NCBI RefSeq assembly: GCF_057098645.1
Contig: NZ_CM169472.1
Direction: 5' to 3' (one strand)
DNA: 64,000 nucleotides
Shown: positions 33,001-36,000 of the stretch, piece by piece
How positions within the stretch are numbered: position 1 is the stretch's first letter
Layout: each line of letters begins with the position of its first letter
Position numbers: made by a program

Positions 33001-36000
33001 TTTGCTGCATGACATGCACCATCGCTTAACGCCTATTGAAGCGGCGCGCTTTGGAAAAAGCATTGAAGATTATCGCATGTTCTGGATGGAAGACCCGACG
33101 CCTGCGGAAAACCAGGAATGCTTCCGTCTCATTCGCCAACATACCGTCACACCCATCGCGGTGGGTGAAGTCTTCAACAGCATCTGGGACTGCAAGCAAC
33201 TGATTGAAGAGCAACTTATCGATTATATCCGCACCACGCTGACCCATGCAGGCGGAATTACCGGTATGCGCCGGATTGCCGATTTTGCTTCGCTGTATCA
33301 GGTACGTACTGGCTCACACGGTCCTTCCGATTTGTCACCAGTCTGCATGGCTGCGGCGCTGCACTTTGATCTGTGGGTCCCCAATTTCGGTGTCCAGGAA
33401 TACATGGGTTATTCCGAACAAATGCTCGAAGTCTTCCCGCACAACTGGACTTTCGATAACGGCTATATGCATCCGGGAGACAAACCGGGTCTTGGTATCG
33501 AATTCGATGAAAAGCTGGCGGCGAAATATCCCTATGAACCTGCTTATCTACCAGTCGCACGTCTGGAAGATGGCACGCTGTGGAACTGGTAAGGAGTAAG
33601 ATAATGAAAAGCATATTAATTGAAAAACCGAATCAACTGGCGATTGTCGAACGTGAAATACCCACCCCGTCAGCGGGTGAAGTACGAGTAAAAGTGAAAC
33701 TTGCCGGAATTTGTGGTTCAGATAGCCATATTTATCGTGGGCATAATCCTTTTGCGAAATATCCGCGCGTCATTGGTCATGAATTCTTTGGCGTCATTGA
33801 TGCAGTGGGTGACGGCGTGGAAAGCGCCAGAGTCGGTGAACGTGTTGCTGTCGATCCGGTGGTCAGCTGTGGGCATTGCTATCCGTGCTCAATAGGTAAG
33901 CCGAACGTTTGTACGACACTGGCTGTATTAGGTGTGCACGCTGACGGTGGTTTCAGTGAATATGCCGTGGTTCCGGCAAAAAATGCGTGGAAAATTCCTG
34001 AAGCAGTGGCCGATCAATATGCGGTAATGATCGAACCTTTTACCATTGCGGCTAACGTAACCGGTCATGGTCAACCGACTGAAAATGATACCGTTCTGGT
34101 TTACGGTGCCGGTCCAATCGGCCTGACGATCGTTCAGGTATTAAAAGGCGTCTATAACGTTAAAAATGTGATTGTTGCCGATCGCATTGATGAACGACTG
34201 GAAAAAGCGAAAGAGAGCGGGGCTGACTGGGTGATTAATAACAGCCAGACACCGCTTGGCGAGATTTTCGCTGAAAAAGGCATCAAGCCGACATTAATTA
34301 TAGATGCGGCTTGTCATCCTTCTATCCTGAAAGAGGCCGTAACGCTGGCTTCTCCAGCGGCACGTATTGTATTGATGGGCTTCTCCAGTGAACCTTCTGA
34401 AGTGATTCAGCAACTAATTACCGGAAAAGAACTCTCTATTTTCTCTTCACGCTTAAATGCAAATAAATTCCCGGTCGTTATCGACTGGTTAAGTAAAGGG
34501 TTAATTGAACCAGAAAAATTAATTACCCATACGTTTGAATTCCAGCATGTTGCTGATGCCATTAGTTTATTTGAACAGGATCAAAAACATTGCTGCAAAG
34601 TCTTACTCACTTTTTCTGAATAATACCAATAACGGCGAGTAAGTAGTACGCATCTTACCTCTTTTTTAGAGATAACCATTATGACAATAGAAAAACACGA
34701 AAGAAGCACTAAGGATTTGGTGAAAGCAGCAGTATCGGGATGGCTGGGCACTGCGCTTGAATTTATGGATTTCCAGTTATATTCGCTCGGCGCAGCGTTA
34801 GTGTTTCATGAAATATTTTTTCCTGAATCATCAACGGCAATGGCGTTAATTTTGGCAATGGGAACCTACGGTGCAGGTTATGTGGCGCGTATTGTCGGAG
34901 CATTTATTTTCGGCAAAATGGGCGACAGAATAGGGCGTAAAAAAGTGCTCTTTATTACCATCACCATGATGGGGATCTGTACCACCTTAATTGGTGTGTT
35001 ACCGACCTATGCACAGATTGGTGTTTTTGCCCCCATCTTGCTGGTGACGCTGCGTATTATTCAGGGGTTGGGTGCAGGTGCGGAAATTTCCGGTGCCGGT
35101 ACGATGCTGGCGGAATATGCGCCAAAAGGTAAGCGCGGAATTATCTCCTCATTTGTAGCTATGGGAACTAACTGCGGAACCTTGAGCGCAACGGCAATCT
35201 GGGCCTTTATGTTCTTCATTCTCAGTAAAGAGGAACTGCTGGCGTGGGGATGGCGTATACCGTTCCTGGCGAGCGTTGTCGTGATGGTCTTTGCTATCTG
35301 GTTACGTATGAATCTGAAAGAAAGCCCGGTCTTTGAGAAGGTTAATGACAGCAACCAACCGACAGCAAAACCTGCACCTGCTGGTAGCATGTTCCAGAGC
35401 AAATCCTTCTGGCTGGCAACAGGGCTGCGTTTTGGTCAGGCGGGTAACTCCGGTTTAATTCAGACTTTCCTTGCAGGCTATTTAGTACAGACGTTATTGT
35501 TTAACAAAGCAATTCCAACAGATGCATTGATGATCAGTTCGATTCTCGGCTTTATGACCATTCCGTTCCTTGGTTGGTTATCCGATAAAATTGGTCGCCG
35601 GATCCCGTATATTATTATGAATACCTCTGCGATTGTACTGGCGTGGCCAATGCTTTCTATCATCGTAGATAAAAGCTATGCCCCAAGCACCATTATGGTT
35701 GCACTGATTGTGATTCATAACTGTGCGGTGCTGGGATTATTTGCTCTGGAAAACATTACCATGGCAGAAATGTTCGGCTGTAAAAACCGCTTTACCCGGA
35801 TGGCTATTTCTAAAGAAATTGGTGGTCTTATCGCTTCCGGTTTTGGTCCTATCCTGGCGGGTATTTTCTGCACCATGACGGAATCCTGGTATCCGATCGC
35901 CATTATGATCATGGCATATTCAGTGATTGGTTTAATCTCTGCGCTGAAAATGCCAGAAGTGAAAGACCGTGATTTAAGTGCGCTGGAAGACGCTGCAGAA

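What the first reader, a model, noticed from the sequence alone, without database searches (positions are those of the whole stretch)
34624..34700. Qin prophage site unoccupied; ydfJ intact
rspB is followed after 57 bp by a continuous 455-aa ydfJ ORF. In K-12, as recalled, the Qin prophage separates rspB from a disrupted ydfJ. This strain therefore lacks Qin and carries a different mobile element at tqsA.
Basis: partly seen in the sequence, partly recalled or inferred. Interest (0 to 1): 0.3.

Follow-up and report, generated by a model that had tools for sequence, protein, structure and literature searches.

The report
Empty Qin prophage site, intact ydfJ
This E. coli strain has no prophage at the spot inside the transporter gene ydfJ where laboratory strain K-12 carries the defective prophage Qin, so ydfJ is whole; about a third of sequenced E. 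coli share this state and it is already described, so the finding is correct but ordinary.

Summary
rspB ends at 34623, a 57-bp spacer follows, and an uninterrupted 455-aa ydfJ ORF runs 34681-36048.

Alignment with K-12 MG1655 shows the window is collinear with K-12 on both sides of one point. There, K-12 carries about 20.45 kb of the cryptic prophage Qin and the window carries nothing. The two K-12 alignments overlap by 19 bp in the window, 34758-34776 (TGAATTTATGGATTTCCAG). This is a single unoccupied copy of the Qin attachment core.

The window YdfJ equals K-12's two fragments joined: YnfP (residues 1-31) and the truncated b1543 product (residues 29-455, 427/427 identical). No Qin DNA occurs elsewhere in the window.

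A 200-bp probe across the site is contiguous in 2008 of 5426 complete E. coli genomes (37%). The sampled split genomes nearly all break at this core. Qin integration at the 5' end of ydfJ is already published (PMC6379469).

Window 1-13469 is a capsid-forming PICI-type phage satellite inserted in tqsA, cut by the window edge.

Verdict: correct, already known, low interest.

The parts
32378..33592 (+). rspA (D-mannonate dehydratase / galactonate dehydratase family), first gene of the cluster
   Evidence: The ORF 32345..33592 matches NCBIfam NF011654 and NF043051 over residues 12-415. It is collinear with K-12 rspA.
33604..34623 (+). rspB (Zn-dependent oxidoreductase), 339 aa
   Evidence: It matches NCBIfam NF007489 over 1-339 of 339 positions at 690.8 bits. 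It is collinear with K-12 b1580.
34624..34680 (+). 57-bp rspB-ydfJ spacer
   Evidence: It is 57/57 identical to the K-12 rspB-ynfP spacer. The consensus scan finds no promoter-like or terminator-like site here.
34681..36048 (+). Intact ydfJ, 455 aa, an MFS transporter of the metabolite/H+ symporter (MHS) family
   Evidence: It is a single ORF that passes the TIGR00883 cut-off. Residues 1-31 equal K-12 YnfP and residues 29-455 equal K-12 b1543, 427/427.
34758..34776 (.). Single, unoccupied copy of the Qin (lambdoid) attachment core, TGAATTTATGGATTTCCAG, in ydfJ codons 26-32
   Evidence: It is the 19-bp overlap of the two K-12 alignments. Both K-12 junctions diverge from the window here. In the sampled split genomes the 200-bp probe breaks at positions 91 and 109, which are window 34758 and 34776.
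36055..36092 (+). Terminator-like hairpin (12-bp stem) plus T-run directly after the ydfJ stop codon
   Evidence: This is a consensus scan result only. It suggests a transcription unit rspA-rspB-ydfJ; that reading is an inference.
36138..37598 (+). ydfI (fructuronate/mannitol dehydrogenase family)
   Evidence: It matches NCBIfam NF011611 at 646 bits. It is collinear with K-12 b1542.
1..13469 (+). Capsid-forming PICI-type phage satellite inserted in tqsA. The window start cuts it inside the integrase gene. The whole element is estimated at about 14.4 kb.
   Evidence: There is no K-12 homology over 1-13469. Pfam identifies integrase, AlpA, an AAA_25 helicase, capsid, S78 protease, portal, gp6 connector, HNH, TerS and TerL. 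PHROGs adds head closure protein and SSB, with no tail or lysis hits. A related element lies between the two tqsA fragments in strain 14EC001.
13470..13606 (-). 5' fragment of tqsA (first 137 nt), separated from the rest of the gene by the satellite
   Evidence: K-12 homology starts at window 13470, equivalent to K-12 1674049, inside tqsA (1673913..1674947). The ORF 13442..13606 (-) is 54 aa and ends in element-derived residues.

Best explanation
Window 34758-34776 is an unoccupied bacterial attachment site (attB) for Qin-type lambdoid prophages. It lies in codons 26-32 of ydfJ.

Because nothing is integrated, ydfJ is a complete 455-aa MFS (MHS family) transporter gene. It sits 57 bp downstream of rspB in the co-directional run rspA-rspB-ydfJ-ydfI.

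In K-12 and most other E. coli, a tyrosine-integrase prophage has recombined at this core. In K-12 that is the about 20.45-kb defective Qin. The integration splits ydfJ into a 36-aa stub next to rspB (ynfP) and a remnant 20 kb away that lacks 28 codons and its upstream transcription signals.

The window strain shows the alternative, prophage-free allele of a common presence/absence polymorphism.

Shown here: the collinearity, the single core, the intact ORF and the population frequency. Inferred: ydfJ is co-transcribed with rspAB and is functional here, and the crossover in K-12 fell within the central ATGGATTTC of the core.
For: The K-12 annotation places Qin between b1543 (ydfJ) and ynfP-rspB.

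blastn of the window against K-12 gives two collinear blocks that abut with a 19-bp overlap at 34758-34776. There are no other indels of 3 bp or more between window 13470 and 55162.

The junction alignment shows the rspB-side K-12 junction identical to the window up to ...GGATTTC and then diverging. The ydfJ-side junction diverges upstream of the core, carries a one-base deletion (GAATT-ATGG), and is identical downstream.

The window YdfJ equals YnfP residues 1-31 plus b1543 at 427/427.

No blastn hit of the 20,451-bp Qin interior occurs anywhere in the window. tblastx gives only one small match, about 60 codons, inside the satellite.

The 200-bp probe is contiguous in 2008 of 5426 genomes. 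Of the 25 split genomes sampled, 23 break at probe positions 91 or 109. The 2.8-kb probe gives 2009 of 5426.

A split example, strain HSP60, has integrase, excisionase and exonuclease genes directly after the core.

All 12 closest genomes cover the site without a prophage-sized interruption.

PMC6379469 describes site-specific Qin integration at the 5' end of ydfJ, with promoter loss and loss of 28 codons. It reports Qin at this locus in 48% of 638 strains.
Against: Nothing contradicts the structural reading. Three limits remain. The rest of the genome is unseen, so a Qin-like prophage elsewhere cannot be excluded. Expression and function of the intact ydfJ were not tested. Operon structure rests only on gene spacing and a consensus terminator scan.
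Confidence: 0.96

Rival explanations
1. The site is secondarily empty. A Qin-like prophage was once integrated in this lineage and later excised precisely through integrase and excisionase, restoring ydfJ. That would be a reversible 'regulated gene integrity' type of event.
For: The site is split in about 62% of genomes. Other strains carry integrase and excisionase genes at it. Precise excision would regenerate exactly the core seen at 34758-34776.
Against: Sequence alone cannot separate this from a never-occupied site. All 12 closest genomes lack a prophage at the site, so no recent strain-specific excision is needed. No phage-derived variant bases (the T deletion or the C-to-A change seen in the K-12 junctions) are present in the window core.
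Confidence: 0.1
2. The empty site is an assembly artefact. A prophage is present in the real genome but was collapsed or dropped from the sequence.
For: Nothing specific supports this. Prophages are a common cause of assembly breaks.
Against: The junction is a clean single core and restores a perfect 455-aa reading frame. The same configuration exists in 2008 complete genomes.
Confidence: 0.02
3. The ORF is a ydfJ paralogue at a non-orthologous locus, so comparison with the K-12 Qin site is not valid.
For: E. coli has many MHS-family MFS transporters; ShiA- and ProP-type models also score.
Against: About 41.7 kb of gap-free synteny with K-12 surrounds the ORF at roughly 98-99% identity. The protein is 427/427 identical to K-12 b1543 and 31/31 identical to YnfP.
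Confidence: 0.01

Closest known systems
Qin cryptic prophage integration site in ydfJ of E. coli K-12 MG1655 (b1543 / ynfP / intQ)
   Same: The locus, flanking genes and 19-bp core are the same. The window sequence is the attB that K-12's two junctions derive from. The integration is described in PMC6379469.
   Different: The window has the unoccupied state. It has no prophage, one core copy and an intact 455-aa ydfJ, where K-12 has a 36-aa stub plus a 427-aa remnant.
Prophage-free ydfJ allele in other E. coli genomes (for example strains TUM13936, A30, EC1515)
   Same: rspA-rspB-ydfJ-ydfI is uninterrupted and annotated as such in RefSeq. 2008 of 5426 complete genomes share this state.
   Different: The best nucleotide identity is only about 99.1-99.2% over 25 kb. 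The exact strain is therefore not in that collection.
Capsid-forming PICIs (cf-PICI; prototype EcCIEDL933, 15.4 kb), for the element at tqsA
   Same: The gene set and order match: int, alpA, replication helicase, then capsid, prohead protease, portal, head closure and connector, HNH, TerS and TerL, with no tail or lysis genes. This agrees with the published description. tqsA is a published target of integrative elements.
   Different: Sequence relatedness to EcCIEDL933 itself was not tested. The left end (5' part of int, attL, 3' part of tqsA) lies outside the window. Region 1070-2300 differs from the related element in strain 14EC001. Induction and mobilisation are untested.

Membership tests
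Unoccupied Qin-type attB in ydfJ | Both flanks are collinear with the K-12 flanks of Qin | tested here: met
   Window 13470-34776 aligns to K-12 1674049-1652743 and window 34758-55162 aligns to K-12 1632291-1611893, at about 98-99% identity.
Unoccupied Qin-type attB in ydfJ | A single copy of the att core, where K-12 has two imperfect copies bracketing the prophage | tested here: met
   The 19-bp overlap at 34758-34776 marks the single core. The K-12 junctions each share one side with the window.
Unoccupied Qin-type attB in ydfJ | No Qin genes at the locus or in the window | tested here: met
   blastn of the 20,451-bp Qin interior against the window gives no hits. tblastx gives one short match to a small DUF3950-like ORF inside the satellite.
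   Only 64 kb of the genome is available.
YdfJ, MHS-family MFS transporter | Full-length match to the metabolite/H+ symporter model above its curated cut-off | tested here: met
   TIGR00883 scores 462.9 bits against a cut-off of 443.45, covering residues 23-418 and all 400 profile positions. Pfam MFS_1 and Sugar_tr also match.
YdfJ, MHS-family MFS transporter | Orthology to K-12 ydfJ | tested here: met
   The protein is 427/427 identical to b1543 and 31/31 identical to YnfP, in conserved synteny.
YdfJ, MHS-family MFS transporter | Transport activity and substrate | not testable with these tools
   No experiment was possible. The substrate proposal (a sugar acid such as L-gulonate) rests on recalled literature that could not be retrieved.
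cf-PICI (capsid-forming phage-inducible chromosomal island) | Core components present: int, regulator (AlpA), replication protein, capsid, prohead protease, portal, head-tail adaptor, head-tail connector, HNH, TerS, TerL | tested here: met
   Pfam hits are Phage_integrase (C-terminal part only), Phage_AlpA, AAA_25 helicase, Phage_capsid, Peptidase_S78, Phage_portal, Phage_connect_1, HNH, Terminase_4, and TerL_ATPase plus TerL_nuclease. PHROGs identifies head closure Hc1. The component list is taken from PMC10085698.
cf-PICI (capsid-forming phage-inducible chromosomal island) | No tail or holin/lysis genes; satellite size of about 15 kb | tested here: met
   None of the remaining ORFs hits a tail or lysis PHROG. 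The element ends at 13469 and starts about 890 bp before the window, judged against 14EC001, giving about 14.4 kb.
cf-PICI (capsid-forming phage-inducible chromosomal island) | Integrated between direct att repeats | tested here: inconclusive
   Only the right junction (13469/13470) lies in the window. In strain 14EC001 the related element is flanked by a 9-bp duplication of tqsA sequence.
cf-PICI (capsid-forming phage-inducible chromosomal island) | Induction by a helper phage and packaging into its own small capsids with helper tails | not testable with these tools
   This is an experimental property.

The most novel reading that the evidence does not exclude
Prophage occupancy at the ydfJ core may act as an on/off switch for a sugar-acid uptake step. 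Strains with the empty site, like this one, would express a complete rspA-rspB-ydfJ(-ydfI) pathway that K-12 cannot use. In strains with intact Qin-type prophages, excision would restore the transporter reversibly. On this reading the empty site could be the 'on' state of a phase-variable metabolic trait rather than a neutral polymorphism.
Probability: 0.1. Interest if true: 0.3.

Novelty: already known. Interest (0 to 1): 0.08.

Why it matters
The finding matters little beyond annotation.

- It tells an annotator that ydfJ should be called here as one intact 455-aa gene, not as the K-12-style pseudogene pair. The rspA-rspB-ydfJ-ydfI cluster is complete in this strain.
- It is a reminder that K-12 shows the derived, disrupted state at this locus. 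By the probe used here, about 37% of complete E. coli genomes have the intact gene.
- The satellite in tqsA is the more biologically active feature of the window. It disrupts the AI-2 exporter gene and is present at that site in only about 5% of genomes. It too belongs to a described family at a described target gene.

Tried and rejected
- **L-gulonate literature.** I tried to support the recalled role of rspA/rspB/ydfI in L-gulonate catabolism (Wichelecki et al. 2014, Biochemistry) from the held library. The DOI and a guessed PMC id were not held. The term 'rspB' was swamped by Proc. R. Soc. B DOIs. Other hits did not mention the E. coli cluster. That functional idea therefore stays marked as recalled knowledge only.
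- **Weaker Qin similarity elsewhere in the window.** blastn and tblastx found nothing meaningful.
- **The 389-aa ORF at 1126..2295 as possible satellite cargo.** Its composition looks spurious. The small minus-strand ORFs there, one matching phrog_949, are more plausible. This was not pursued.
- **Ancestral emptiness versus precise excision.** The core sequence cannot separate the two.
- **Failed calls with no bearing on the result.** These were file name; stretch too long; term too short.

Full report
**Observation**

The six-frame ORF list shows a + strand ORF ending at 34623 and the next + strand ORF at 34681..36048, which is 455 aa with an ATG start. The gap is 57 bp (sequence).

The upstream protein is taken from the K-12-equivalent start at 33604. 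It matches the NCBIfam equivalog for the RspB-type Zn-dependent oxidoreductase over all 339 positions at 690.8 bits. The 455-aa protein passes the curated cut-off of TIGR00883 (metabolite/H+ symporter, 462.9 against 443.45 bits) and matches Pfam MFS_1 and Sugar_tr. RefSeq annotates the matching genes in other genomes as rspA, rspB, 'MHS family MFS transporter YdfJ' and ydfI.

**Comparison with K-12**

The MG1655 record annotates 'cryptic prophage Qin' at 1632277..1652745. On one side lies ydfJ (b1543, 1631002..1632285, 427 aa). On the other lie ynfP (36 aa), rspB and rspA.

blastn of the whole window against about 110 kb of K-12 gives these blocks:

| Window | K-12 |
|---|---|
| 13470-34776 | 1674049-1652743 |
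| 34758-55162 | 1632291-1611893 |
| 55661-64000 | 1611892-1603543 |

The first two blocks meet with a 19-bp overlap at window 34758-34776 (TGAATTTATGGATTTCCAG). K-12 has 20,451 bp between the corresponding points. Between 13470 and 55162 there is no other indel of 3 bp or more.

The junctions were aligned base by base. The rspB-side K-12 junction equals the window up to ...ATGGATTTC and then reads AAGAGTCATG..., which is phage sequence. The ydfJ-side junction is phage sequence up to ...CCTG, then reads TGAATT-ATGGATTTCCAGTTATATT... with one T missing, and is identical to the window from there on. The window therefore holds the single bacterial attB. By inference, the K-12 crossover fell within the central ATGGATTTC.

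At protein level, window YdfJ residues 29-455 are 427/427 identical to K-12 b1543. Residues 1-31 are identical to YnfP, and the 57-bp spacer is 57/57 identical. K-12's two fragments are thus the two halves of the gene seen whole here.

The core lies in codons 26-32 of ydfJ.

**Is any Qin DNA present?**

The Qin interior gave no blastn hit anywhere in the window. tblastx gave one short match between the ynfO (DUF3950) region of Qin and a small ORF in the satellite. Qin is absent from this locus and from the 64 kb seen. The rest of the genome cannot be judged.

**How common is this state?**

A 200-bp probe centred on the core is contiguous in 2008 of 5426 complete E. coli genomes, or 37%. The 2.8-kb probe gave 2009. 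The median genome has two separate places matching the probe. In the evenly spaced sample, 23 of 25 split genomes break at probe positions 91 or 109, which are window 34758 and 34776.

In one split example, strain HSP60, the DNA right after the core encodes an IS1-disrupted site-specific integrase, an excisionase and an exonuclease. That is a lambdoid prophage left end. The 12 genomes most similar to the window over 25 kb (99.1-99.2%) all cover the site without a prophage-sized interruption.

The literature already covers this. [quoted passage not shown] It reports Qin at this locus in 48% of 638 Escherichia and Shigella strains.

**What it means mechanistically**

*Shown:* the strain has the prophage-free allele of a frequent presence/absence polymorphism at a tyrosine-integrase attB inside ydfJ, and so it has an intact transporter gene.

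*Inferred:* rspA, rspB and ydfJ are co-directional with 11-bp and 57-bp gaps. The spacer has no promoter-like or terminator-like consensus site. A 12-bp-stem hairpin with a T-run follows the ydfJ stop at 36055-36092. ydfJ is therefore probably transcribed with rspAB, which fits the 'promoter loss' noted for K-12.

*From my own recollection, not verified here:* rspA, rspB and ydfI homologues have been tied to L-gulonate catabolism in strains with the intact cluster. That would make YdfJ the candidate uptake step. I could not retrieve the paper.

Sequence cannot tell whether the site was never occupied or was vacated by precise excision. The uniformly empty state of the closest genomes makes a recent excision unnecessary.

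K-12 homology begins at window 13470, equivalent to K-12 1674049 and 136 bp into tqsA. Window 13442..13606 (-) is a 54-aa ORF: the tqsA N-terminus with a foreign tail. Window 1-13469 has no K-12 counterpart.

It encodes, in order:
- the C-terminal part of a tyrosine integrase (cut by the window edge)
- AlpA
- a block of small ORFs
- a RepA-type AAA_25 helicase
- SSB
- a PerC-like activator
- major capsid protein
- S78 prohead protease
- portal
- head closure protein
- gp6-type connector
- HNH nuclease
- TerS
- TerL

No remaining ORF hits a tail or lysis family.

In strain 14EC001 a 93-99% identical element sits between the two tqsA fragments. It has a 9-bp target duplication and the integrase next to the 3' tqsA fragment. 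By that comparison the window's element is about 14.4 kb.

This is the published architecture of capsid-forming PICIs: the prototype EcCIEDL933 at 15.4 kb, with 11 core components and no tails or holins. tqsA is a published target of gene-inactivating integrative elements.

A K-12 probe across the tqsA site is contiguous in 5170 of 5426 genomes, so about 5% of genomes have it interrupted. 140 genomes carry most of this element plus flank.

**Verdict**

Observation confirmed and interpretation supported. There are two small corrections: the position of the att core, and the scope of 'lacks Qin'. The feature is an already described, common polymorphism, so interest is low.

Noticed in passing
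window 55163-55660 (ORF 55228..56646): This 498-bp stretch is absent from K-12. It is the 5' part of dgcF (yneF). The window encodes a 472-aa protein with a GGDEF domain at residues 303-461, against 315 aa in K-12. 4190 of 5426 complete genomes have the long form, so K-12 carries a minority 5' deletion.
   Followed up: partly
window 1-13469 and 13470-13606: A cf-PICI-type satellite of about 14.4 kb is inserted 136 bp into tqsA (the AI-2 exporter gene), leaving a 54-aa N-terminal stub. The site is interrupted in only about 5% of complete E. coli genomes.
   Followed up: yes
window 1070-2300: This region of the satellite, between alpA and the small-ORF block, is largely unrelated to the otherwise 93-99% identical element in strain 14EC001. 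It holds a probably spurious 389-aa + strand ORF and two small - strand ORFs. One of these, 1686..1883, matches phrog_949 and resembles Qin ynfO (DUF3950). It may be variable cargo or a regulatory module.
   Followed up: partly
window 36055-36092: A strong terminator-like hairpin (12-bp stem plus T-run) lies immediately after ydfJ, while the rspB-ydfJ spacer has none. This suggests that ydfJ ends the rspAB transcription unit and that ydfI is transcribed separately.
   Followed up: no
window 14000-38900: The best match of this core-genome stretch to any of 5426 complete E. coli genomes is only 99.2%, and only 79 records reach 99% or more. The source strain appears to belong to a sparsely sampled lineage or to be recombinant here.
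   Followed up: no
window 58327: There is a 9-bp in-frame-length deletion relative to K-12, at the end of or just after the ORF 56873..58324 (the uxaB region by collinearity).
   Followed up: no
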